From a virus (taxonomy: Duplodnaviria; Heunggongvirae; Uroviricota; Caudoviricetes): a DNA stretch of 42,839 nt. Below the pieces are notes generated by a model. The model was not told the DNA's origin and ran no database searches. It was given only the letters and a program-made list of their open reading frames with translations. This document shows, one piece after another, positions 3,286 to 37,508 of the stretch; position 1 is the stretch's first letter; the number at the start of each line of letters is the position of its first letter. The stretch spans positions 1 through 42,839 of IMG/VR virus record IMGVR_UViG_2565956731_000005, one strand, 5' to 3'. Both the position numbers and the translations under genes were made by a program.

Positions 3286-5961
3286 CTACTTAGATCCCCC
3301 CTCCGGATTCAGCAAATTATTCAGCTCCGCAAGATGTGACTCTATTTTTTCGATTCTTCTACGCAAATAAGCAGACTCAAGCCATAAGCACTGGTCAGCA
3401 CGAATCCCCCACCTATTTCCAGCTTTGCGTACCAGAATTCGCTCTTCTGTTTCGTATTCTTCTTCCTTCTCAATTTCGACACCATCCACAACTTCAGTAA
3501 TCGTCCTTACCGCCATCACTGGCTCGTATTTATCATCCCATTCATCGTAACAGAGAAGGCCAAATCGGGTTCCATCAACCCCATGCGCGAGGAAAGCGTC
3601 TCTTACCTGTTGTGCTATGACACCAAAATGCCAGCGGGCACCATCTCCCTTTTCCCTGATAGCCTCAAGCCAGCGAAAAGCTACGATCCTGATATCTCCC
3701 CATGCATCCAAAATTACATCACCTTCATAACCAGGGGACATATTCAGACTGAGTTCACTCGTTGTTAGCGGGTCGCTTTTTTCCCTACCATCTGAGGTGT
3801 TTATTGAGCCTGAAACAGCATAAATCTGAGTTGGCCTGTTATCTGGTACACCAACACTGTAAGAATTATCCAGATAAGGATGCCAGTGACCATTTGGACT
3901 TACTTTCCATCTCCAGGTGTCATTACTTCCCAAATGTAAATCAGCTCCATTTGCAGCCATTAAAGCTACATTGGAAGTGCTCATGTACATCTGGAAATAA
4001 CCAACGCCTTTTCTCTGCCATTCATAAAGCAAGCCTGTTCCCTGTTCGTTGTTGAACTTTAATGCTTTTATAGGTGAATTTTCTCCCCATGTTGTATCAC
4101 CTGAATAAATTACATGAGGAACCACCTCTGGATTATCAGAGATACATATTTCTTTAGATGGTAGAGATAGCGTTCTTTTATCTCCTGCACCAAGCGCATA
4201 AATCAGAATGGTGCGTCTGGTTGCCCCCATAACATCAGAATGCTCAGATACTATCGTTACCGATGGATAAAGAACACCATCGTAATCAACAAAATGCATC
4301 CCTTCTGATTCGCGGAATGTAGGGGTAGAGCCAATGATTCGTGGTAAATCCGTATCACCCAAATTAGAAATGGCTTTCTGCACATCATTTCCCAGCAGAT
4401 CGCAACTTGATAAATATTGAGTCTGCCCAAACGTAGTATTCCCACAATACATATACAGATGCGAGCCATCAGAACAAAATCCACTAAGTGATGTGGTTTC
4501 ATCACCACCGACTTGCGAAAGTTGAAGAGTAAACTCATGAGTACACAGGGCTGAATAATCACCTGGTTTATCAAAAATGTCTGTGGAAAATACACGAAAC
4601 GTTTGCTTATTGTAGTCGCCATTGTCGGTGAAACGGATAATCATCCATTTTCCGTCTAATGTAATAGTCGGAGTAGTTGAACTACCCGCTGTACGATTTT
4701 CCTCTACAACCCTAAACATTTCAGGAGAATCTATTTCCCCCTCGGAGTTGCTCCTCCAGGAAAATCTAACCACCCCATGTGAACCACCTACAGAAAAATC
4801 AAAGTCAGTATGGGTAGTAGAGCCTGCCGGTGTATCTGGAGCTGTAGTCCATAACTTAATCGCATTGTCTATATTCTGTACCGCTATTCCCTGATGACCC
4901 AGCCTGTCCTCAGGAAGCATAAAATCAGAAGATGTGTTTTTAATTTTTGAATCAGCAGAATATTTATTCCAGACAGAAACAGTAGTAGGGTTTCCATCTA
5001 TTTCTGTATTGTGATTGGAATAATAAGCTCTGCTTACAGGATCATATGCAAAAGTTTGCAATGTTCTTATTTGTCCGCGACCATTAGCAATTGGTATAAA
5101 CCGTATAGCGGCATTAGACTCATGTCCAATGGAATTAACGTCCCATGCAGGTCGCTTGCTTGTAACTAATTCGCCATTAACAGGAATGACTTTTCCGCCA
5201 ACCAACCATTTCCCGTTAATATAGGTATTCCTGAAAAATGTTCTGGAGGTAAAATAAGTTTTACCCTGCATATCAATAATTCTAGATGAAATAGCAGCCT
5301 CAAGTGATTCAAAAGCTAAAGAATCATTTGTAACACCATCACCTACAGCACCAAAATCTTTAGGGCTAACTGTGTCACGCATCTTATCCTGGAACGTTCT
5401 GTATACTGCTCCAGAACCATACTGAATAAACCAACCAAAACCACCAACAACTCCGGCGATTGCAGCATCAACATAATTACGCATTGAGCGATTATTTACA
5501 GCATCCTGCTCAAGTGATGGATCTGCAAGGTTAGAAATTCTGTTTTGTTTTGCATCGTAATATTTTGCAAGCAGAGAGGGCTTCATCAATGCACGTCTGA
5601 ACCACCCAAAACATTGCTGGATCAGCATCGTCAGGTAGTCAAAGGCATCTTCATGCACTTCGGGGAAAAACTTTCCCTGATTGCGGAGGTCTGTCTCCTG
5701 CACTACATCAAGCACACGATCTATCGTAATTAGCCAGCCAACAGCAAGCGGAGACGGAAGAACCACAGAACCGCCACTATAAGTGCCCGCCCCAGTTACC
5801 GTATAACCGGTATCCAGGACCAATTCTGTTACGTTTCCGTTCAGGTCAGACACCTGAACAACCAGGTCGGATTTTTTGAAAATACGGAAGGTATACGGAA
5901 ATGATGTCGTAACTCCGTTACCGGTGTATTCGTTGTGGTCAACTTCGGTTGAGACCGTCAT
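3286..5961 (-). CDS. Tailspike / tail fibre with depolymerase-type beta-helix and C-terminal intramolecular chaperone (peptidase S74-like)
   Basis: Conserved podovirus tail-fibre N-terminus (MTVSTEVDHNEYTGNGVTTSFPYTF); DFGAVGDGVTNDS pectate-lyase/beta-helix signature; C-terminal region with WHFGVIAQQV resembling the auto-cleaving chaperone domain. RBS GGAGA upstream. Confidence 0.85.
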   Translation of the reverse strand: MTVSTEVDHNEYTGNGVTTSFPYTFRIFKKSDLVVQVSDLNGNVTELVLDTGYTVTGAGTYSGGSVVLPSPLAVGWLITIDRVLDVVQETDLRNQGKFFPEVHEDAFDYLTMLIQQCFGWFRRALMKPSLLAKYYDAKQNRISNLADPSLEQDAVNNRSMRNYVDAAIAGVVGGFGWFIQYGSGAVYRTFQDKMRDTVSPKDFGAVGDGVTNDSLAFESLEAAISSRIIDMQGKTYFTSRTFFRNTYINGKWLVGGKVIPVNGELVTSKRPAWDVNSIGHESNAAIRFIPIANGRGQIRTLQTFAYDPVSRAYYSNHNTEIDGNPTTVSVWNKYSADSKIKNTSSDFMLPEDRLGHQGIAVQNIDNAIKLWTTAPDTPAGSTTHTDFDFSVGGSHGVVRFSWRSNSEGEIDSPEMFRVVEENRTAGSSTTPTITLDGKWMIIRFTDNGDYNKQTFRVFSTDIFDKPGDYSALCTHEFTLQLSQVGGDETTSLSGFCSDGSHLYMYCGNTTFGQTQYLSSCDLLGNDVQKAISNLGDTDLPRIIGSTPTFRESEGMHFVDYDGVLYPSVTIVSEHSDVMGATRRTILIYALGAGDKRTLSLPSKEICISDNPEVVPHVIYSGDTTWGENSPIKALKFNNEQGTGLLYEWQRKGVGYFQMYMSTSNVALMAANGADLHLGSNDTWRWKVSPNGHWHPYLDNSYSVGVPDNRPTQIYAVSGSINTSDGREKSDPLTTSELSLNMSPGYEGDVILDAWGDIRIVAFRWLEAIREKGDGARWHFGVIAQQVRDAFLAHGVDGTRFGLLCYDEWDDKYEPVMAVRTITEVVDGVEIEKEEEYETEERILVRKAGNRWGIRADQCLWLESAYLRRRIEKIESHLAELNNLLNPEGGSK

Positions 5962-6421: not shown

Positions 6422-6439
6422 AGGCCGCAAGAGCGGCCT
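6422..6439. terminator. Hairpin between convergent genes (bidirectional terminator candidate)
   Basis: AGGCCGC-AAGA-GCGGCCT stem-loop in the 22-bp gap between convergent genes 6158..6415 and 6438..7166; T-rich on the minus side. Confidence 0.5.
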
Positions 6440-7166
6440 ATCGTTTCGCTTTGTGCTCATCCCAGCACGTTTTGCACCATGCCATTAATCCGTCCGCATT
6501 TTGATTATTAGGGTAAAAGCTGGTTCGTTTTCTGCGGACATTACAAATTGGGCACCACTTCATATGGCGTGTATTCTTTGGGCCATCGAGACACCTTGCA
6601 CACCACTTAGTCAATCCATCTGGATTTTTTGACGATTTCCTGAATTTTTCATATGGTAGGTTTATTCTGCATCGCAAGCACTGCTTGCTACCACTTGAAA
6701 CTCTGTTAGCTGATTCTTCTTTTGGCGGCGATACAGAAGGTATTCTTGCTGGCTCTGATACTGCCTGAGGTGCTTTTTTAGATGACTGAGACGATATGTC
6801 ATCACCAGGGAATCTTCCATGATATGCCGGACGCGTTGACACTCCAGGTGGAAGCTCAGCTGTAAACGGCTTTGGCTGAATCAGTTGCCTCTCTTTTGCT
6901 AACTCCTGCTGTTTATAATATGTCTGGATTACCGCACTATCATAAGCAGGAGGTGCGGAAATATTAGGCGCATTACCTCCAGTTTTTTGAAACTGAGTAG
7001 AGGTGTGTTCTATCACCTGTGTACGATTAATCGTTATCTCCCCATCTTCGGTCTTTATCGTTTTGTTATGATTAACGACCGTACGATCAGAGATCTTAGT
7101 CTTGTTCTGGTTGATAACGTAAATAATCACCGCAACCACACCAACAACTATCCAGAAAACTTCCAT
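6438..7166 (-). CDS. Membrane-anchored protein with tandem C-terminal zinc-ribbon repeats, function unknown
   Basis: N-terminal transmembrane helix (FWIVVGVVAVIIYVI), Pro/Ser-rich linker, then CLRC…DGLTKWCARC…WCPIC…DGLMAWCKTC (two xDGLxxWCxxC repeats plus extra CxxC). RBS GAGGAAAA upstream; operator 20 bp upstream. Confidence 0.6.
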   Translation of the reverse strand: MEVFWIVVGVVAVIIYVINQNKTKISDRTVVNHNKTIKTEDGEITINRTQVIEHTSTQFQKTGGNAPNISAPPAYDSAVIQTYYKQQELAKERQLIQPKPFTAELPPGVSTRPAYHGRFPGDDISSQSSKKAPQAVSEPARIPSVSPPKEESANRVSSGSKQCLRCRINLPYEKFRKSSKNPDGLTKWCARCLDGPKNTRHMKWCPICNVRRKRTSFYPNNQNADGLMAWCKTCWDEHKAKR

Positions 7167-7185: not shown

Positions 7186-7202
7186 ATTACCTTAAAGGTA
7201 AT
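7186..7202. promoter_or_regulatory. 17-bp palindromic operator ATTACCTTAAAGGTAAT
   Basis: Perfect inverted repeat in the divergent promoter region between 6438..7166 and ant. Confidence 0.6.
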
Positions 7203-7250
7203 ATCTTGCTTTCAGGTGATCAAGCGTTAAACGCAATCAACCAAATACGG

Positions 7251-7295
7251 TTGATTTTAATATTTCTTCGCGTTTATCATTACCTTTGCGGTAAA
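7251..7295 (+). promoter_or_regulatory. Candidate sigma70 promoter (TTGATT-N18-TATCAT) overlapped by operator ATTACCTTTGCGGTAAA
   Basis: -35/-10-like hexamers with 18-bp spacing; operator copy at 7279..7295 overlaps the -10/+1 region; points toward ant. Confidence 0.4.
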
Positions 7296-7385
7296 TTTAC
7301 ATCGCACTCCTCTTGTGCCATAGTAATCGGGTACTGGCAAAATCCAGTGCCGGGATTGGCGTCCCGAGTTACTAAGTGGCGCATA

Positions 7386-7407
7386 CCACGCCAGACGTGG
7401 TTTTTTT
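7386..7407 (+). terminator. Rho-independent terminator in the ant leader
   Basis: CCACG-CCAGA-CGTGG hairpin followed by TTTTTTT, about 155 bp upstream of the ant start codon. Confidence 0.65.
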
Positions 7408-7563
7408 ATGCGTTAAGCACAGCTATATCCGAATTATGGTGGGCTGGGCAGGGGTCCGAAAGGACGCCGGTACCACTTAGGCCGGTACGCCAACCTTGTC
7501 CAGTTCACCACCAGTAATTGGCGTTGCGGTGGTGATTAAAATCACTAAGTGGAGATAACCACC

Positions 7564-8274
7564 ATGGCTAATGCTCAAACTGCCATCTTCAAATTTGAAT
7601 CTGTTAACCCTATCCGTTCCATCATTATCGATGGCCAACCATGGTTTGTAGCCCAAGACGTTTGTAGTGCGCTGCGTATCCAAAACGTCACCCAAGCACT
7701 TGAAAAACTGGATGATGATGAAAGGTCTATGTTCAACATAGGGCATGAACATCGTGCAATTTTTGACAGCCGAGTAAAAGAGATCAACATCATCTCCGAG
7801 TCAGGCCTCTACACACTGATCCTCCGCTGCCGCGATGCGGTGACACCAGGCACTATCCCCTACCGCTTTCGTAAATGGGTTACAGGTGAGGTTCTTCCTC
7901 AGATCCGCCGCACCGGAAGTTACATTAAAAACTCGCTCCCGCAGGAAGAACGCATAAAGATGGTTGCCGACCAGGTAGCCAACGCCACGGCGTCAGCAGT
8001 AATGCAGGCGATGAAGATAGAGAACAAAACCTACAGTGCCCCACTGAAGCCCGGCTACCGCAGTCTGATTCATTCTCCGTCTGGTGTTCTCGGCCTGACG
8101 GAGAACTCACTGCTGATGAATTTGCTGAACCAGTTACAGGAAGACGGGCACGACGTATCGGGCGCGGCGGCGGAGCTGACCACCATGTTCTGCTACATCG
8201 TCGGTGTGAGTAAATGCCTGCGTGATATCCAGACCCACGCGGAGTACATCAACGACAAGGCAGGGTTCTTCTGA
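7564..8274 (+). CDS. ant: Antirepressor Ant (Bro-N domain plus KilAC-like C-terminal domain)
   Basis: Bro-N signature (AIFKFESVNPIRSIIIDGQPWFVAQDVCSAL…YRFRKWVTGEVLPQIRRTGSY); RBS GGAG 9 nt upstream of the ATG at 7564. Confidence 0.85.
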   Translation: MANAQTAIFKFESVNPIRSIIIDGQPWFVAQDVCSALRIQNVTQALEKLDDDERSMFNIGHEHRAIFDSRVKEINIISESGLYTLILRCRDAVTPGTIPYRFRKWVTGEVLPQIRRTGSYIKNSLPQEERIKMVADQVANATASAVMQAMKIENKTYSAPLKPGYRSLIHSPSGVLGLTENSLLMNLLNQLQEDGHDVSGAAAELTTMFCYIVGVSKCLRDIQTHAEYINDKAGFF

Positions 8275-8343: not shown

Positions 8344-8360
8344 ATTACCTCAAGGGTAAA
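8344..8360. promoter_or_regulatory. Operator-like palindrome ATTACCTCAAGGGTAAA
   Basis: Motif copy about 60 bp upstream of the small ORF at 8420. Confidence 0.5.
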
Positions 8361-8419: not shown

Positions 8420-8599
8420 ATGCGAAACGAAAAATTGCAGATGCGTAGAGCGCAAGCTGCCGCAAGACGTTCTTTCAATGGAAGCGTAGAGTACGTAAAA
8501 GTTACTATGACAAAAGATCACGCAAGTCGCGTATCCCGCGCTTTCTTTGATTCTCGTAACAATAAGGAAAATTATGAGTTCGTCTGCGTCGCAGAATGA
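8420..8599 (+). CDS. Small basic protein (59 aa), possible ribbon-helix-helix antitoxin/regulator
   Basis: Below the ORF-track size cutoff. RBS GAGG 8 nt upstream; overlaps the start of the downstream gene by 26 bp (operon-coupled). VKVTMTKDHASRVSRAFF is consistent with a beta-strand plus helix DNA-binding fold. Confidence 0.35.
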   Translation: MRNEKLQMRRAQAAARRSFNGSVEYVKVTMTKDHASRVSRAFFDSRNNKENYEFVCVAE

Positions 8600-9119
8600 T
8601 AAAAATCAAATTGTCAGATATAAGGGTCGAGTATTGCATACGCAAAATTTCTCGGCCCTTTGTGCATCTGATCTTGAGCTGAAGAAAGTATCTGATGCCT
8701 TTACCCAGTATTGGAAAACGGGATACCATCCATCTCTTGGTAAAGATGCTGCATTTGCTCGTCCGACAGAAATGCTTAAACTAAATGTCAGGCATACTCA
8801 TGTCGATAACCAAGACTATATTCCAGAAGATAGTGATAAAAAACACACTGGTAAAAAATCATCTTGGGATGCATGGAAAAATATAGCGTCTGTACAAGTA
8901 AAATGCATACCAACAAGTGATTGCTTTTTAGTTTATTCGGTAAATCACAATCGTGATGCGCTGGTTATGTTTTTTGTTGACGCAGATGCCCACAACATAA
9001 CTGAGCAAGAAGAGTTTAAAGAGGCAGCAATCACTATCAGTTATCAATTCTTTGAGAAAACAAAAACAGAACCAATGCCTTTAGAAGAAGATCTTTTTTC
9101 TGATAAATGGAAGGAATAA
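8574..9119 (+). CDS. YafO-like protein (putative toxin / mRNA interferase family), product uncertain
   Basis: RBS AAGGAAA upstream of the ATG at 8574. Central region (GKDAAF…NVRHTHV…TSDCFLVYS…ALVMFFVDADAH) resembles YafO-family toxins as recalled; AT-rich relative to neighbours. Confidence 0.45.
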   Translation: MSSSASQNDKNQIVRYKGRVLHTQNFSALCASDLELKKVSDAFTQYWKTGYHPSLGKDAAFARPTEMLKLNVRHTHVDNQDYIPEDSDKKHTGKKSSWDAWKNIASVQVKCIPTSDCFLVYSVNHNRDALVMFFVDADAHNITEQEEFKEAAITISYQFFEKTKTEPMPLEEDLFSDKWKE

Positions 9120-9374: not shown

Positions 9375-11849
9375 TTATTGCGGAGTGACATCCTGTGGTC
9401 GCCACCAGTATGTCTGATTAAACTCTTTCTTCGAACGTTGCTCCATTTTACGCAAATAGCCTGGTGAAAAATACTCCTGCATCTGGTTAAAGATCATATG
9501 ATCGAGAGCCGCCTTTAAGTACCATAGATTCGCACCTGGCATCAAACCTTTCCCCAGCTTCACCAGATCACCACCAGTCTGCTCACTCTTCCCTTCCACA
9601 GCATTTAACGGTATGCCCTGAGCAATCTTCACTACGTCATCAACCAGACCAGCTACCGGGCCAAGCATCGACGCCAGCGCGCCGCTTCCGTACCTAGTGT
9701 GATCTGACAATAAAAAGTCACCGTAAAGGCCAAGGCCACCACCTTTCAGTAAAGCACCAAGCCAGAATTTTGCGGCATCTTCTCCTGTCATCTCTCGAGG
9801 ATTACGACCAGACGCAAGGTCGTTAAGTTGCTGCGACAAAGCGCCAAGAATGGTCGTACTGGCAATAAACGTCGCAATATATGCCGCACGCCCACCAGCA
9901 GACGGCATACCCATAGCGCGTGACCAGTGACGCATAACAACCGAGATAGGAAACGATTTAAACAGGAAAACACTTCTCGTTAATTCACCTTTCCATGTTC
10001 CACGCTGAATACCAGAACCGGTTATCAGTTGCTCACGTGCTCCCGGTGTAATAACAGCCATATCAACTTCTTCAGTTACGGCACCGAGCAGTTTACGCAT
10101 TGCCTCAAATTTCACTCGTTCAGGCTCACCAAGATGTTTAACTGCTGAATCAGGGATACGCATAATGCTTTCCGGTGTCAGCATCGTATTATTGCCGTTC
10201 CCCCAGTCCTCCTGTTGCGCCAGCTTCCATACGCTCCAGTCTGTTTCAGTAATCCCTTTGCTTTTCAGGATACGAAAATCAGAGCCATCGAGGCTACGAA
10301 GGTCTGGTGTCCGTGACACTACTTCTCCCAGGCTTCCCATCATTGTTACGCCATAGGCGCGCTTGTGCGCATCTGACCATGCTGTAAGTCCACTGGCACG
10401 CATTACCGCCATTGCCGCCCAACGAGACACAGACGGCCCCATATTATCCATCGCCCAGCGGTTAACGCTGCCAAGTAGAGATTCCATCGCCAGACCAGCG
10501 CGGCGCGCCCGCGCAAGCTCAGTACGGTTCGTTGGGTCCATAGCTTCAAGCTGGTTGCGGAATAACTGGTTCATTGGAAGGTTGGTAACCTTCGCAGACA
10601 GATACATGGTTCCAAGATCAGAGAACGATGACAGCAACGCGGATCCGAGTCTGCTGGCAACCAGCCAGTTGCGGATATTGTCAGACCATCGCGCGATGTG
10701 CGGATTCGCTACAGGCTGTGTCTTTCCGGAAATAAAGTTGTACAGATTCTCTGTGTTGTTCGCCAGCCGCTCGACTTTACCGGTTTTACTCGGGTTAGCT
10801 GTTGCCGTTTCTGCCTTAACCTGATCAAGAAGGGAGCGGAAAACATGATCGGGGTTTGGGCCATATGTTTCCACCAGTGCAATATCTTTACTGATACCTT
10901 CCAAGTGACCGACCATGATTTCCCATAGAGAGCGATCGCCATAAAGTTGCTGATATTGCAGATAGGAATCTGCATCTTTGAAATGTATCTGTCGTGATGC
11001 ATTACCACGGTTAGCACGTGCGCCGGAAATTCGCATTCCGGTATCAGTAAGCTTATTCAGCCCACCAGTAGCGATCGTGTTATAAGCCTCTCCAAGAAAT
11101 GCAGACAACTCGGCATCGTTCATCAGTTGTCCATCGGCTCGGGTATAATATTTGCGATCCAGCTTACCTATAACATCGCTAACCCATTTATCTTTTGATA
11201 CCGCCCCAACCTTTTCCATAGAATGATGTTGAGGGATCCCCCAGTTTTCGAGATAGCCAATGTCCCCACCAGCATCATTAAACCGGCGGCGGAGTAGATC
11301 TGTCACTTCTCTCCACGCCTTAGCACCTTTTCTTGCTTTAGCATTGCCAGTATTTTGCCCTCGCATTTCATATACCAGGTCACGCACGCCAGCTTCATCT
11401 TCAAACAGGCCAAAAAAGCGAGGATCAACTGCTTCAAATGCCTCCTGCAATTGACTCAATGCATAATCACGAGTGGCTTTTGTTCTGGACTCAACAGAGA
11501 GGAAATTAGATTTGCCGTCTGCATTAAAAGCAATAGTACGGTTAAGAGCGCCAAGTTTTCCATCAGCCCCTTGGTAGCTATTGATAAATTTATCCAATCT
11601 CTGACGTGCGGCTATAGTGAGGGCAACACGACGTTTCTTTAATGCCGCTTCTCGCTGTAATTCTTCAGATGCCAATTGTGCTGCACGATACAGCCGCTCT
11701 GATTCGGAAAGTTGTCGCCACGACATCGGGTCATCACGAGCAATGGAGCGCATATTTCGATAAATGCGGTCTTCAATGTTCTGTATTTCTCGCGCCGTTA
11801 ACGTGCGCTGCGCCGCCTGCTGGACCGCTTGTATACATTCCTGTCTCAT
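9375..11849 (-). CDS. Large internal virion / DNA-ejection protein
   Basis: 824-aa protein, the last of three large genes following the tail-tube genes, in the position of T7 gp14-16-like core proteins; tightly coupled to the upstream gene. Confidence 0.65.
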   Translation of the reverse strand: MRQECIQAVQQAAQRTLTAREIQNIEDRIYRNMRSIARDDPMSWRQLSESERLYRAAQLASEELQREAALKKRRVALTIAARQRLDKFINSYQGADGKLGALNRTIAFNADGKSNFLSVESRTKATRDYALSQLQEAFEAVDPRFFGLFEDEAGVRDLVYEMRGQNTGNAKARKGAKAWREVTDLLRRRFNDAGGDIGYLENWGIPQHHSMEKVGAVSKDKWVSDVIGKLDRKYYTRADGQLMNDAELSAFLGEAYNTIATGGLNKLTDTGMRISGARANRGNASRQIHFKDADSYLQYQQLYGDRSLWEIMVGHLEGISKDIALVETYGPNPDHVFRSLLDQVKAETATANPSKTGKVERLANNTENLYNFISGKTQPVANPHIARWSDNIRNWLVASRLGSALLSSFSDLGTMYLSAKVTNLPMNQLFRNQLEAMDPTNRTELARARRAGLAMESLLGSVNRWAMDNMGPSVSRWAAMAVMRASGLTAWSDAHKRAYGVTMMGSLGEVVSRTPDLRSLDGSDFRILKSKGITETDWSVWKLAQQEDWGNGNNTMLTPESIMRIPDSAVKHLGEPERVKFEAMRKLLGAVTEEVDMAVITPGAREQLITGSGIQRGTWKGELTRSVFLFKSFPISVVMRHWSRAMGMPSAGGRAAYIATFIASTTILGALSQQLNDLASGRNPREMTGEDAAKFWLGALLKGGGLGLYGDFLLSDHTRYGSGALASMLGPVAGLVDDVVKIAQGIPLNAVEGKSEQTGGDLVKLGKGLMPGANLWYLKAALDHMIFNQMQEYFSPGYLRKMEQRSKKEFNQTYWWRPQDVTPQ

Positions 11850-25780: not shown

Positions 25781-25857
25781 GTGGCATTAGCTCAGTTGGA
25801 CAGAGCAACCGCCTTCTAAGCGGTTGGTCGCAGGTTCGAATCCTGCATGCCACGCCA
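25781..25857 (+). tRNA. tRNA-Arg (anticodon UCU), CCA end encoded
   Basis: Cloverleaf folded by hand: acceptor GTGGCAT/ATGCCAC, D-arm GCTC-AGTTGGACA-GAGC, anticodon stem ACCGC/GCGGT with loop CTTCTAA, T-arm GCAGG-TTCGAAT-CCTGC, discriminator G then CCA. Resembles argU. Confidence 0.9.
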
Positions 25858-34112: not shown

Positions 34113-34457
34113 TCAGAACTCTTCGATGTTCCAGCCACCACCTGCTTTCTTTGGTTTAACCGTTACCCCGATGATTCGGAACGGATATTGATCTGCGGCG
34201 ACTTTGGTTTTCACCCTGGCGTCGTCGGTCCAGAAACCTTTCACTTCGTGCAGTTCCATCTCGCCGGTGGCGAGCATCACAGCAAAATCGGGCGTATAGA
34301 ACGTGTTGTCAGCTAACCGCAGCTTGATACCCTCGAATCGATACCAGGCGATTTCCCCTGCACGTTTACGCTGCTCAAGGTGCTGGCAATACGCAGATTC
34401 TGTTTTGTTCATCTGGCCTGTTTTGAGTCGACCAAGAGCCTGTATCTGTTTTCTCAT
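34113..34457 (-). CDS. Small putative PD-(D/E)xK endonuclease
   Basis: Motif YTPDF…ELHEVKG fits the PD-(E)xK fold; RBS GAGG upstream. Confidence 0.45.
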   Translation of the reverse strand: MRKQIQALGRLKTGQMNKTESAYCQHLEQRKRAGEIAWYRFEGIKLRLADNTFYTPDFAVMLATGEMELHEVKGFWTDDARVKTKVAADQYPFRIIGVTVKPKKAGGGWNIEEF

Positions 34458-36538: not shown

Positions 36539-36769
36539 TCATGAGTAGAAGAAGTATGCCAGTTCTGCTTTTGAGCGCAGCCATTGTCTTGATTTACAGG
36601 CTTTAAAAAGCCCATCCATCAATACCTTACCTGGCATTTTGCGCTTACCTGTTAAGTGAGTCTGGATATAGTGACTCGTCGTTCCGGCTTCCTGTGCGAA
36701 GGCTTCACGCTCATCCGGAGTAAGTGCAAGCCAGTGCTTTTTGAAATCGAAATGTCCGTTATCGCTCAT
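36539..36769 (-). CDS. Cro-like HTH regulator
   Basis: 76 aa with an HTH-like segment (EAFAQEAGTTSHYIQTHLTGKRK); divergent from the repressor gene, with operators between them. Confidence 0.55.
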   Translation of the reverse strand: MSDNGHFDFKKHWLALTPDEREAFAQEAGTTSHYIQTHLTGKRKMPGKVLMDGLFKACKSRQWLRSKAELAYFFYS

Positions 36770-36923: not shown

Positions 36924-37508
36924 ATGAAAAGTATCCAGGACGTCCGCAGGCAAAATCTCAACGACTTGATCGACCGTGAATTCAATGGTGTTCAGACGCG
37001 GATGGCTGAAAAACTTGGAACTCAGGCAAATCTGGTAAACCGCTGGGCTCTTGGCAAGAAGGTTATCGGCGACCAGGTTGCACGAAAAATTGAAGCTGCC
37101 GCCAATAAACCCCGTAACTGGCTTGATATCGATCGCTCGCTTTCTCAGGAAGGTTTTCAGCCTGTCGGCCCAAGCGACATTGGCCAGCTGGCGGCTCACA
37201 ACCTGGAACGCTGGATGAGCGAAAGCCGCGACCTTTCAACACAGGGAAAACTTCACCGCGCATCCGGCGTAGCCCAGGTGACAATCAGCCGCCTGTTAAA
37301 CAATGAGGTCAGCGTTTCCATTTCCACCCTGGAGAATGTTGCATCCGCATTCGGGCGTCACGGCTATGAATTACTGATTCACCCGCACGACCCTGCGACC
37401 ATCAACTATGACCGCTCGCGCTACGCATTGTTACCCGAAACCGAGAAAGCAAAGATCGAAAGTTACATTGAATTTGTCATCAACCAGAACGAAAAAAACA
37501 AACAATAA
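36924..37508 (+). CDS. Prophage repressor, tandem HTH (XRE-type), no S24 peptidase domain
   Basis: Two HTH-like segments (QTRMAEKLGTQANLVNRWALGKK and LHRASGVAQVTISRLLNN); C-terminus shows no Ser/Lys autocleavage motif; divergent from the Cro-like gene; followed by a terminator. Confidence 0.7.
   Translation: MKSIQDVRRQNLNDLIDREFNGVQTRMAEKLGTQANLVNRWALGKKVIGDQVARKIEAAANKPRNWLDIDRSLSQEGFQPVGPSDIGQLAAHNLERWMSESRDLSTQGKLHRASGVAQVTISRLLNNEVSVSISTLENVASAFGRHGYELLIHPHDPATINYDRSRYALLPETEKAKIESYIEFVINQNEKNKQ

What the first reader, a model, noticed from the sequence alone, without database searches (positions are those of the whole stretch)
7251..7563. Long structured leader with intrinsic terminator and repeated ACTAAGTGG motifs upstream of ant
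Between the operator-overlapped promoter at about 7251..7295 and the ant start lie roughly 270 bp with no plausible ORF. This stretch contains a strong rho-independent terminator (7386..7407), three copies of ACTAAGTGG in both orientations (7371, 7476, 7544) and a GCCGGTAC direct repeat. This suggests either a small RNA of about 120 nt ending at the terminator or an attenuation or antitermination switch controlling antirepressor expression, functionally comparable to sar/Arc/Mnt control of P22 ant but with a different architecture.
Basis: partly seen in the sequence, partly recalled or inferred. Interest (0 to 1): 0.5.

Follow-up and report, generated by a model that had tools for sequence, protein, structure and literature searches.

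The report
P1-type c4 antisense RNA switch
The "structured leader" in front of this E. coli prophage's antirepressor gene is an ordinary, unannotated copy of the phage P1 / Gifsy-1 RNA switch: a short terminated RNA (IsrK type) plus a c4 antisense RNA whose loops match the repeated motifs, one of which covers the gene's ribosome-binding site.

Summary
The terminator (7385-7407), the three ACTAAGTGG-type copies and the GCCGGTAC repeat are all present, and the arrangement is far beyond chance.

The region matches two curated RNA families in tandem:
- isrK (7331-7407, 63.5 bits, threshold 50). This is the same element as Rfam c4-a1b1.
- C4 antisense RNA (7432-7515, 66 bits, threshold 45).

The motif copies are the b sites of the P1 immI scheme:
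- b1 at 7372-79, in the IsrK-like RNA.
- b' at 7473-80, in the C4 hairpin loop.
- b2 at 7545-52, overlapping the ant Shine-Dalgarno GGAG (7551-54). The ant ATG is at 7564.

The "direct repeat" is simply the two arms of C4 hairpin 2.

P1 and Gifsy-1 leaders give the same Rfam hits in the same order. Across more than 100 phage contigs, and four specificity types among close relatives, a'/a1/a2 and b'/b1/b2 change together.

The most likely mechanism is that C4 blocks ant translation at its ribosome-binding site, and the terminated IsrK-like RNA carries decoy sites that relieve this.

Verdict: a new member of a known kind, of low interest.

The parts
7187..7201 (.). Palindrome TTACCTTAAAGGTAA, a candidate repressor operator between the divergent 242-aa ORF (start 7166, - strand) and the ant leader
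   Evidence: One of 14 TTACC-N5-GGTAA sites in the window, against 0.69 expected. Two more lie between the double-HTH repressor-like ORF and its divergent partner. Operator function is inferred.
7251..7280 (+). Upstream promoter-like site TTGATT-18-TATCAT.
   Evidence: Consensus scan only, 9/12 matches. Not supported by homology, so uncertain.
7280..7294 (.). Palindrome TTACCTTTGCGGTAA, a candidate operator abutting the -35 of the leader promoter
   Evidence: The position is analogous to the C1 operator Op51 at the P1 c4 promoters. Inferred.
7296..7324 (+). Promoter TTTACA - 17 bp - (TG)cCATAGT, with a start near 7331
   Evidence: Found by the scan. The -10 aligns, through the c4-a1b1 model, with the annotated -10 TATAGT of P1 P51b and with TATATT of Gifsy-1 PisrK. 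Conserved in all close relatives.
7331..7407 (+). IsrK-like small RNA, the same element as c4-a1b1: two 5' hairpins, a single-stranded linker and an intrinsic terminator
   Evidence: Rfam isrK 63.5 bits (threshold 50). c4-a1b1 scores 43.4 bits at 7318-7370, just under its threshold of 46.7. Fold.
7356..7362 (+). a1 site UUGGCGU, in the loop and 3' arm of IsrK hairpin 2. It is complementary to a'.
   Evidence: It co-varies with a' and a2 in relatives. It corresponds to Gifsy-1 IsrK nt 26-32, which include G28 and G31, shown experimentally to pair with C162 and C159 (indexing).
   Evidence: It co-varies with b' and b2.
7385..7407 (+). Intrinsic terminator of the IsrK-like RNA: 6-bp stem, loop CCAGA, seven U
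   Evidence: -7.6 kcal/mol. A run of at least five T lies 5-75 nt upstream of C4 in 109 of 128 distinct related loci.
7432..7515 (+). C4-type antisense RNA: long stem 7437-7510 enclosing hairpin 1 (GAAA loop) and hairpin 2 (GCCGG/CCGGU), followed by a 3' CCA at 7511-7513
   Evidence: Rfam C4 66 bits, threshold 45. Folding energy -43.6 kcal/mol, z = -5.0 on the + strand against z = -1.2 on the - strand. 17 of 20 consensus pairs show compensatory changes in 71 sequences.
It is complementary to b1 and b2.
   Evidence: Each 8-bp duplex is -12.6 kcal/mol.
7487..7493 (+). a' = ACGCCAA in the single-stranded junction of C4. It is complementary to a1 and a2.
   Evidence: At least 15 different a' words occur in relatives, each matched in both flanks.
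7518..7524 (+). a2 site UUGGCGU, 3 nt after the C4 element
   Evidence: The position relative to C4 is the same as the annotated a2 of P1.
   Evidence: In related loci b2 usually ends in GGA(G), with the start codon 6-11 nt further on. The annotated P1 b2 sits 11 nt before the icd ATG.
7564..8274 (+). ant: a 236-aa Bro-N antirepressor-type protein, the regulated gene
   Evidence: Pfam Bro-N, E = 9.6e-20. The antirepressor at the same locus of Uetakevirus phage ZX5 (also Bro-N, but only 39% identical to that of phiV10) pushes the phage towards lysis when overexpressed (PMC9782041).

Best explanation
The window is an epsilon15/phiV10-like (Uetakevirus) E. coli prophage. The roughly 233-nt leader of its Bro-N antirepressor gene is a phage P1-type immI RNA module.

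Proposed sequence of events:
1. Transcription starts near 7331 from TTTACA-17-CATAGT. This promoter is probably under the prophage repressor, through the adjoining TTACC-N5-GGTAA palindrome.
2. Many transcripts stop at the modest intrinsic terminator. This gives a 77-nt IsrK-like RNA that displays sites a1 and b1.
3. Read-through transcripts contain the C4 RNA. In P1 this RNA is cut out by RNase P.
4. The C4 hairpin-2 loop (b') and junction (a') pair with b2 and a2 in the ant leader. Because b2 overlaps the ant Shine-Dalgarno sequence, C4 blocks ant translation and keeps the antirepressor silent in the lysogen.
5. The a1/b1 sites, in cis or on the free IsrK-like RNA, compete for the same C4 surfaces and so relieve repression. 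This is what IsrK does in trans for anrP in Gifsy-1.
6. The particular a and b words set the specificity, meaning which phage's C4 silences which ant.

Shown here: the family matches, the fold, the geometry, and the three-way co-variation. Inferred from P1 and Gifsy-1: the direction of regulation, the processing, the decoy role and the operator control.
For: Family matches and layout:
- Rfam isrK and C4 both score above threshold, in tandem on the + strand. C4 folds far better than shuffles on the + strand only.
- P1 immI, with annotated a1, b1, c4, a2, b2 and icd, gives the same three Rfam hits in the same order with near-identical spacings. So does the Gifsy-1 isrK locus, where the 'orf45'/STnc1160 region is a 69-bit C4 hit.

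Link to experiment:
- The experimentally proven Gifsy-1 pairs G28:C162 and G31:C159 are exactly a1:a' (with my indexing of the sequence).
- IsrK supplied in trans raised anrP translation more than 100-fold.
- An RNA of about 80 nt is processed from the read-through transcript.

Co-variation:
- In 82 non-redundant loci, a word of 7 nt or more complementary to the locus's own loop is found downstream in 59 and upstream in 48. Mismatched locus pairs give about 3-4%.
- The layout is stereotyped, with b2 ending in GGA(G) 6-11 nt before the ATG.
- Close relatives fall into four specificity types in which a'/a1/a2 or b'/b1/b2 change together.
- 61 of 71 distinct C4 sequences have a word whose complement lies in both flanks, against 11.3 of 71 for mismatched pairs.
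- 17 of 20 C4 pairs show compensatory changes.

Chance and target gene:
- The window's arrangement arose by chance in at most 1 of 20,000 shuffles.
- The downstream gene is a Bro-N protein. Across 63 distinct modules the first ORF is Bro-N (13), Rha (9), ORF6C (4), P22_AR (2), KilA-N (2), or a small ORF or protein with no Pfam match.
Against: - There are no transcript or protein data for this phage.
- The c4-a1b1 model scores 43.4 bits, just under its threshold of 46.7.
- P1 uses an intervening ORF (icd) and Rho polarity, and Gifsy-1 was interpreted through 'orf45' translational coupling. The window has neither: the ORF at the C4 5' end is 14 codons with its stop inside b', and it has no Shine-Dalgarno sequence. 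The exact step controlled may therefore differ.
- The core duplexes are short (8 and 7 bp; -12.6 and about -10 kcal/mol).
- The free ant leader is predicted to sequester its own start codon and a2 in a -22 kcal/mol hairpin. Repression could therefore be partly structural and independent of C4.
- In Gifsy-1, over-expressing STnc1160 did not counteract IsrK. This does not fit a simple repressor/decoy picture.
Confidence: 0.8

Rival explanations
1. Termination control, as in satellite phage P4 (CI RNA with seqA/seqC) and. C4 pairing with a1/b1 on the nascent transcript, 5 nt before the terminator stem, decides whether RNA polymerase stops at 7407 or reads into C4 and ant. Pairing at a2/b2 triggers premature (Rho-dependent) termination rather than a translation block.
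For: - b1 ends 5 nt before the terminator stem.
- A larger alternative stem, GGCGCAU/AUGCGUU, brackets the terminator.
- The terminator hairpin is weak (-7.6 kcal/mol), which suits a tunable stop.
- The Gifsy-1 authors raised the same P4 analogy.
- In P1, ant transcription does depend on Rho polarity (established knowledge: Biere et al. 1992, from memory).
Against: - b2 overlaps the Shine-Dalgarno sequence in the window and in most relatives, which points to translation as the primary target.
- In Gifsy-1, transcription of anrP rose 8-fold while translation rose 139-fold with IsrK.
- Constitutive STnc1160 did not reduce the IsrK effect.
- This mechanism can coexist with the main explanation rather than replace it.
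Confidence: 0.13
2. The 77-nt terminated RNA is mainly a trans-acting, Hfq-dependent sRNA that regulates host genes or other prophage genes. Its sequence matches with the downstream leader are secondary.
For: - The Rfam family is named 'isrK Hfq binding RNA'.
- IsrK levels respond to stress conditions in Salmonella.
- An extra ACTAAGTGG lies in a neighbouring gene at 6603.
Against: - The a1 and b1 words change together with a'/b' and a2/b2 from phage to phage. This is not expected if the targets were conserved host genes.
- The 6603 copy does not co-vary with b' and is absent from most relatives of the same type.
Confidence: 0.05
3. Nothing functional is present: the repeats are chance, or the stretch belongs to the mechanical 103-aa TTG ORF (7206-7517).
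For: the ORF listing reports the ORF. Nine-mers do recur by chance in 43 kb (7 matches with up to one mismatch, against 6.7 expected).
Against: - Two Rfam hits above threshold.
- Shuffle test: at most 1 in 20,000.
- Compensatory changes in stems and three-way co-variation of the motifs.
- Relatives differ by insertions and deletions in this stretch that would shift any reading frame.
Confidence: 0.01

Closest known systems
Phage P1/P7 immI operon: c4 antisense RNA with a1, b1, a2 and b2 sites, controlling icd-ant (Rfam C4 RF01695 and c4-a1b1 RF03163)
   Same: - Same order: promoter, a1, b1, terminator-like hairpin, C4 (b' in the hairpin-2 loop, a' in the junction), a2, b2 over a ribosome-binding site, then the gene.
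- Spacings agree within a few nt: a2 lies 3-4 nt after C4, a2 to b2 is 27 against 29 nt, and b2 to ATG is 11-12 nt.
- The C4 model scores are similar (66 against 68.8 bits).
- An operator for the main repressor sits at the promoter.
   Different: - The recognition words differ: window a = UUGGCGU and b = CUAAGUGG; P1 a = UUGACAG and b = GUUAGUG. Cross-reaction is therefore not expected.
- There is no icd-like ORF. b2 covers the ribosome-binding site of the Bro-N ant gene itself, so control is direct rather than through translational coupling and Rho polarity.
- The Ant protein is a Bro-N protein. Its relationship to P1 Ant1/2 was not tested here.
- The host phage is an integrated podovirus, not a plasmid prophage.
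Salmonella Gifsy-1 isrK-orf45-anrP locus (IsrK sRNA, STnc1160; Hershko-Shalev et al. 2016, PMC4825925)
   Same: - The a word and a' are identical (UUGGCGU / ACGCCAA).
- Same isrK fold and terminator, and same C4 element (69 bits).
- b2 lies next to GGAGG of the antirepressor gene.
- The experimentally proven helix 'b-I' equals a1:a'.
- A short terminated RNA and a read-through mRNA come from one promoter.
   Different: - The b word differs (AUCACCG(G) against CUAAGUGG).
- The 45-codon 'orf45' that the authors place over the C4 region is not present in the window: 14 codons, stop inside b'.
- The Gifsy-1 locus sits next to the late antiterminator gene antQ, whereas the window's locus sits between tail-fibre and virion genes.
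- The published model does not mention c4 or P1.
Satellite phage P4 immunity: CI RNA with seqA and seqC
   Same: A small RNA is processed from the leader of the operon it controls, and it pairs with one complementary site upstream and one downstream of itself. The Gifsy-1 authors call IsrK a structural homologue of SeqA.
   Different: P4 CI acts by causing premature transcription termination of replication genes, not by covering the ribosome-binding site of an antirepressor gene. No P4 family was reported in the Rfam scan of the leader at E up to 1.
Phage P22 immI: sar antisense RNA plus the Mnt and Arc repressors controlling ant
   Same: An antirepressor gene located among late/tail genes is kept silent in the lysogen, and an RNA pairs with its ribosome-binding region.
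   Different: - sar is transcribed from the opposite strand across the arc-ant junction. Here the regulator is encoded in the same strand upstream and acts through short loop complementarity.
- No ORF of 25 aa or more lies wholly between the leader promoter and ant, so there is no arc-like gene there. Nearby ORFs were not compared with Arc or Mnt.
- The nearest - strand promoter-like site is at 6943-6915, not near the ant start.

Membership tests
C4 antisense RNA (Rfam RF01695; P1/P7 c4) | Covariance-model score at or above the curated gathering threshold | tested here: met
   66.0 bits against a threshold of 45, full-length match 1-87 at 7432-7515 on the + strand.
C4 antisense RNA (Rfam RF01695; P1/P7 c4) | Long closing stem enclosing two hairpins, strand-specific and supported by compensatory changes | tested here: met
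   The minimum-energy fold equals the Rfam consensus: -43.6 kcal/mol, z = -5.0 on the + strand against -1.2 on the - strand. 17 of 20 consensus pairs have double compensatory changes among 71 sequences. Hairpin 2 was not recovered by RNAalifold, but it is GCCGG/CCGGU here and GCUGG/CCAGU in P1.
C4 antisense RNA (Rfam RF01695; P1/P7 c4) | Two unpaired segments (a', b') complementary to a pair of sites upstream (a1, b1) and a pair downstream (a2, b2), in antiparallel order | tested here: met
   Sites: b' 7473-80, a' 7487-93, a1 7356-62, b1 7372-79, a2 7518-24, b2 7545-52. Chance at most 1 in 20,000. Three-way co-variation in relatives.
C4 antisense RNA (Rfam RF01695; P1/P7 c4) | b2 overlaps the ribosome-binding site of the first downstream ORF | tested here: met
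   b2 at 7545-7552 overlaps GGAG at 7551-7554; the ATG is at 7564. The same holds in most related loci.
C4 antisense RNA (Rfam RF01695; P1/P7 c4) | Mature RNA of about 77 nt, cut from the leader transcript by RNase P, that represses antirepressor synthesis | not testable with these tools
   Only indirect support: a 3' CCA follows directly after the closing stem (7511-7513), and an about 80-nt processed species is seen in Gifsy-1.
P1 immI operon (c4-icd-ant) | A small ORF (icd) between b2 and ant, whose translation is required for ant transcription | tested here: not met
   The first ORF after b2 is the 236-aa Bro-N gene itself. The module therefore works like P1 immI but is not an icd-ant operon.
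isrK (Rfam RF01394) / c4-a1b1 (RF03163) | Covariance-model score at or above threshold | tested here: met
   isrK scores 63.5 bits against 50 at 7331-7407. The overlapping c4-a1b1 model scores 43.4 against 46.7, just below threshold. Both models also hit the P1 and Gifsy-1 leaders.
isrK (Rfam RF01394) / c4-a1b1 (RF03163) | Two 5' hairpins (GCAAAAUC loop; a1 in the second loop), a linker carrying b1, a Rho-independent terminator, and a position directly upstream of a C4 RNA | tested here: met
   Fold, terminator, C4 25 nt downstream.
isrK (Rfam RF01394) / c4-a1b1 (RF03163) | Hfq binding and trans-activation of antirepressor translation | not testable with these tools
   Known only for Gifsy-1.
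Gifsy-1 isrK-orf45-anrP model | A translated 45-codon ORF spanning the C4 region and translationally coupled to the antirepressor gene | tested here: not met
   In the window the ATG at 7435 opens only 14 codons, stops at TAG inside b', and has no Shine-Dalgarno sequence. In 51 related loci the equivalent ORF varies from 4 to more than 100 codons.
P22 immI (sar, arc, mnt) | Antisense RNA transcribed from the opposite strand across the ant ribosome-binding site, together with arc and mnt repressor genes | tested here: not met
   No Rfam or promoter signal on the - strand at the ant start, and the - strand folds no better than shuffles. No ORF of 25 aa or more lies wholly between the leader promoter and ant, so there is no arc-like gene there. 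Nearby ORFs were not compared with Arc or Mnt.

The most novel reading that the evidence does not exclude
The IsrK-type RNA and the c4 RNA are two halves of one self-contained RNA toggle. The terminated 5' RNA acts as a decoy (sponge) for the antisense RNA made from read-through of the same promoter, so terminator efficiency sets the antirepressor threshold.

On this reading, the Gifsy-1 'orf45' is really the c4 RNA, and the P1 and Gifsy-1 literatures describe the same device.

The freely recombining a and b words would then define immI immunity classes. There are four classes among phiV10-like prophages alone, and this leader family is present in about 8% of complete E. coli genomes. These classes would decide which co-resident or superinfecting phage can be induced.
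Probability: 0.45. Interest if true: 0.4.

Novelty: new member of a known kind. Interest (0 to 1): 0.2.

Why it matters
For annotation: this leader family occurs in 455 of 5,426 complete E. coli genomes. In the eight RefSeq records listed, only the Bro-N gene is annotated under the match. phiV10 itself carries only a 'terminator' feature there. Uetakevirus papers discuss repressor and antirepressor without the RNAs.

Recognising the module explains how the antirepressor is kept silent, and it predicts immunity classes among otherwise near-identical prophages.

It also links two separately studied systems. Mapping the Gifsy-1 mutations onto a1:a' shows that they are the same device as P1 c4.

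None of this changes the field's picture of how such switches work.

Tried and rejected
- The fourth ACTAAGTGG, at 6603 on the - strand inside the 242-aa ORF, was considered as an extra C4 target. It was rejected: the same sequence is present in relatives whose b' differs, and most relatives of the window's own type lack the site.
- The 103-aa TTG ORF (7206-7517) and an 'orf45' equivalent were considered as coding. Both were rejected. The ORF-length survey in relatives was itself inconclusive, with a broad spread.
- RNAduplex on the full-length RNAs gave energies no better than shuffles because of huge interior loops. Only the short-site energies were used.
- The search for related loci with the Ant protein returned only near-identical prophages. 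These were useful for specificity types but not for diversity. The second brought in about seven non-C4 false positives, visible.
- RNAalifold did not recover hairpin 2, because the variable loop is aligned with gaps.
- Two paper searches, two protein look-ups, one paper look-up and one script failed on formal grounds or timed out and were repeated.
Full report
**What the window is.** About 77-79% of the first 25 kb matches Escherichia phages HEMP4, phiv142-3 and phiV10 at 96-98% identity. These are epsilon15-like podoviruses of the genus Uetakevirus. The finding lies between the tail-fibre gene (3286-5961, - strand) and a virion protein gene (9375-11849, - strand), upstream of a 236-aa ORF (ATG 7564, stop at 8274). 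That ORF carries a Bro-N domain (Pfam E = 9.6e-20). In phiV10 the homologous stretch is annotated only with a 'terminator' and a 'putative anti-immunity protein'.

**Checking the observation.**
- The terminator has a 6-bp stem at 7385-7401 followed by seven T. Its hairpin is only -7.6 kcal/mol, so it is canonical but not strong.
- ACTAAGTGG is exact at 7371 and 7544. The inverted copy is at 7473-7481 and matches 8 of 9 bases.
- GCCGGTAC occurs at 7466 and 7481.
- A fourth exact copy at 6603 (- strand) and a second motif trio were not noticed: TTGGCGT at 7356 and 7518, and its complement ACGCCAA at 7487.
- In 20,000 shuffles of the flanks, two separate words of 7 nt or more from the central segment had complements in both flanks only once, and an 8-mer never did.

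**What it is.** A gathering-threshold Rfam scan of the whole window gives two RNA genes in tandem on the + strand.
- isrK at 7331-7407 (63.5 bits, threshold 50).
- C4 antisense RNA at 7432-7515 (66 bits, threshold 45).
- A permissive scan adds c4-a1b1, 'a1, b1 targets of C4 antisense RNA', at 7318-7370. It scores 43.4 bits, just under its threshold of 46.7. isrK and c4-a1b1 therefore model the same element.
- C4 folds into the family's consensus shape at -43.6 kcal/mol. The z-score is -5.0 on the + strand and -1.2 on the - strand.

- The inverted motif copy CCACUUAG (7473-7480) is the loop of C4 hairpin 2.
- The 'GCCGGTAC direct repeat' is that hairpin's two arms (GCCGG / CCGGU).
- ACGCCAA (7487-7493) is the single-stranded junction.

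In P1 nomenclature these are b' and a'. Their complements are as follows.
- a1 (7356-62) lies in the loop of IsrK hairpin 2.
- b1 (7372-79) lies in the IsrK linker.
- a2 (7518-24) lies 3 nt after C4.
- b2 (7545-52) overlaps the ant Shine-Dalgarno GGAG (7551-54).

**Comparison with the two studied systems.** The annotated P1 record lists a1, b1, c4, a2, b2 and icd in this order, with near-identical spacings. Its leader gives the same three Rfam hits. It also has a terminator-like hairpin with a T run between b1 and c4.

The Gifsy-1 isrK locus likewise contains isrK (79 bits), c4-a1b1 (48 bits) and a C4 hit of 69 bits. That C4 hit covers what Hershko-Shalev et al. called orf45/STnc1160.

I checked their numbering against the sequence: A107 and AUG119-121 fall on the two ATGs. 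On that numbering, their compensatory pairs G28:C162 and G31:C159 are exactly the a1:a' duplex U26-U32 / A158-A164. They showed several relevant things.
- The locus makes a short terminated RNA and a read-through mRNA.
- The read-through mRNA is translationally silent.
- IsrK in trans raises anrP translation more than 100-fold.
- An RNA of about 80 nt is processed from the read-through transcript.

That paper does not mention P1 or c4.

**Evidence that the motifs function as pairing partners.** A pattern scan of viral contigs that fixed only the hairpin-2 stem and a' returned 120 loci with 88 different loops.
- In 82 non-redundant loci, a word of 7 nt or more complementary to the locus's own loop occurred downstream in 59 and upstream in 48. 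Mismatched locus pairings gave about 3-4%.
- The layout is stereotyped: a1, b1 about 14 nt later, a T run, C4, a2 at +21 to +24, b2 at +48 to +57 usually ending in GGA(G), and the start codon 6-11 nt beyond.
- A T run precedes C4 in 109 of 128 distinct loci.
- A second scan that fixed only the ends of the long stem showed at least 15 different a' words. In 61 of 71 distinct C4 sequences a word had its complement in both flanks, against 11.3 of 71 for mismatched pairs.

Among close relatives of the window's own phage group there are four specificity types.
- The window type: a = UUGGCGU, b = CUAAGUGG.
- A type with b = CUACAAAGG, where b1 keeps pairing through a G.U.
- The phiV10 / TL-2011b type, with b = CUAAAAGG.
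- A type in which a', a1 and a2 have all changed to the GUGCAAA / UUUGCAC pair.

The C4 stems show compensatory changes at 17 of 20 consensus pairs in 71 sequences. The 6603 copy does not co-vary and is absent from most same-type relatives, so it is a chance match.

**How it most likely works.**

*Shown:* the two RNA elements, their fold, the geometry of six short complementary sites, the overlap of b2 with the ant ribosome-binding site, and the co-evolution of the sites.

*Inferred from P1 and Gifsy-1:*
- Transcription starts near 7331 from TTTACA-17-CATAGT. The -10 aligns with the annotated P1 P51b -10 and with Gifsy-1 PisrK through the c4-a1b1 model.
- Part of the transcripts end at 7407 as a 77-nt RNA.
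- Read-through yields C4, which is probably excised. A CCA follows the closing stem directly, as suits RNase P.
- C4 pairs through b' and a' with b2 and a2 and blocks ant translation.
- a1/b1, in cis or on the free short RNA, compete for the same C4 surfaces and relieve the block.

*Differences from the models:* there is no icd-like ORF. The 'orf45' frame is only 14 codons, with its stop inside b'. The ant ribosome-binding site itself is therefore the target.

*Caveats:* the free leader is predicted to sequester a2 and the start codon in a -22 kcal/mol hairpin. Four GGUGG/CCACC segments (7438-43, 7506-12, 7528-34, 7558-63) allow alternative pairings. Part of the silencing may therefore be structural. 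A P4-like effect on termination at 7407 remains possible as a second layer.

**What the module controls elsewhere.** In 63 distinct modules the first ORF after b2 is as follows:
- Bro-N: 13
- Rha: 9
- ORF6C: 4
- P22-type antirepressor: 2
- KilA-N: 2
- otherwise a small ORF or a protein with no Pfam match

Direct control of a Bro-N gene is thus a common variant. In the related phage ZX5, overexpressing the antirepressor at this locus (also Bro-N, but only 39% identical to that of phiV10) reduced lysogeny (PMC9782041). APSE phages were reported to carry c4 and isrK RNAs, with the c4 antisense regions matching the non-coding region upstream of the adjacent BRO-N gene (PMC7313666).

**Novelty and verdict.** The kind is well known: Citron and Schuster 1990 for P1/P7, the Rfam families from Weinberg et al. 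2010, and Gifsy-1 in 2016. The instance is typical. It is unannotated here, although leaders of this family occur in 455 of 5,426 complete E. coli genomes, and the eight RefSeq records listed show only the Bro-N gene under the match.

I rate it a new member of a known kind with low interest.

The only mildly new points are these:
- the explicit identification of Gifsy-1 helix b-I with a1:a', and of 'orf45' with C4;
- the four immI specificity types among phiV10-like prophages;
- direct targeting of the ant ribosome-binding site.

Noticed in passing
window 6066, 7187, 7280, 8345, 25444, 30508, 30526, 34461, 34523, 36469, 36806, 36854, 37566, 37628 (15 bp each): The palindrome TTACC-N5-GGTAA occurs 14 times (at most one mismatch), against 0.69 expected and a maximum of 4 in 100 shuffles. 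At least seven sites lie in gaps between the listed ORFs; the others were not placed. This looks like a dispersed operator set for the prophage repressor, reminiscent of the scattered C1 operators of P1.
   Followed up: partly
window 36924-37508 (+), with 36539-36769 (-): A 194-aa ORF with HTH_3 / Cro-C1-type domains (a weaker second HTH-like match lies near the N-terminus) sits divergent from a 76-aa ORF. Two of the palindromes (36806, 36854) lie between them. It is probably the main repressor with a Cro-like partner and an OR-type region.
   Followed up: partly
window 6438-7166 (-): A 242-aa ORF divergent from the ant leader has a hydrophobic N-terminus and Cys-rich C-terminal repeats (weak Stc1 match, E = 5e-4). 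It is present in only some relatives of each immI type. Function unknown.
   Followed up: no
window 8547-9119 (+), with palindrome at 8345-8359: A 190-aa ORF just downstream of ant has a borderline YafO-toxin match (25.8 bits, threshold 25) and is preceded by one of the operator-like palindromes. It may be a repressor-controlled accessory (moron) gene.
   Followed up: no
window 25781-25857 (+): A tRNA-Arg (anticodon UCU) lies in the middle of the prophage, about 320 bp downstream of another operator-like palindrome (25444).
   Followed up: no
L236 (IMGVR_UViG_2671181028_000005) 9712-9794, 10368-10450, 11024-11106 (-): One viral contig carries three C4-type elements spaced 656 bp apart, at least two of them with different loop words. 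This may be a tandem array of immI modules or an assembly repeat.
   Followed up: no
window 7438-7443, 7506-7512, 7528-7534, 7558-7563 (+): Four mutually complementary GGUGG/CCACC segments allow alternative pairings. Either the C4 closing stem forms together with a hairpin holding b2 and the Shine-Dalgarno sequence in its loop, or a hairpin forms that presents a2. P1 has matching CCUGCCACC / GGUAGCAGG segments at the same place. This may correspond to the 'structure A / structure B' switch described for Gifsy-1.
   Followed up: partly
L203 (Gifsy-1, NC_010392) 34131-34214 (-): The region published as 'orf45'/STnc1160 is a full-length C4 antisense RNA match (69 bits). Its start codon is the conserved AUGG at the base of the C4 stem. 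The Gifsy-1 paper does not cite c4 or P1.
   Followed up: yes
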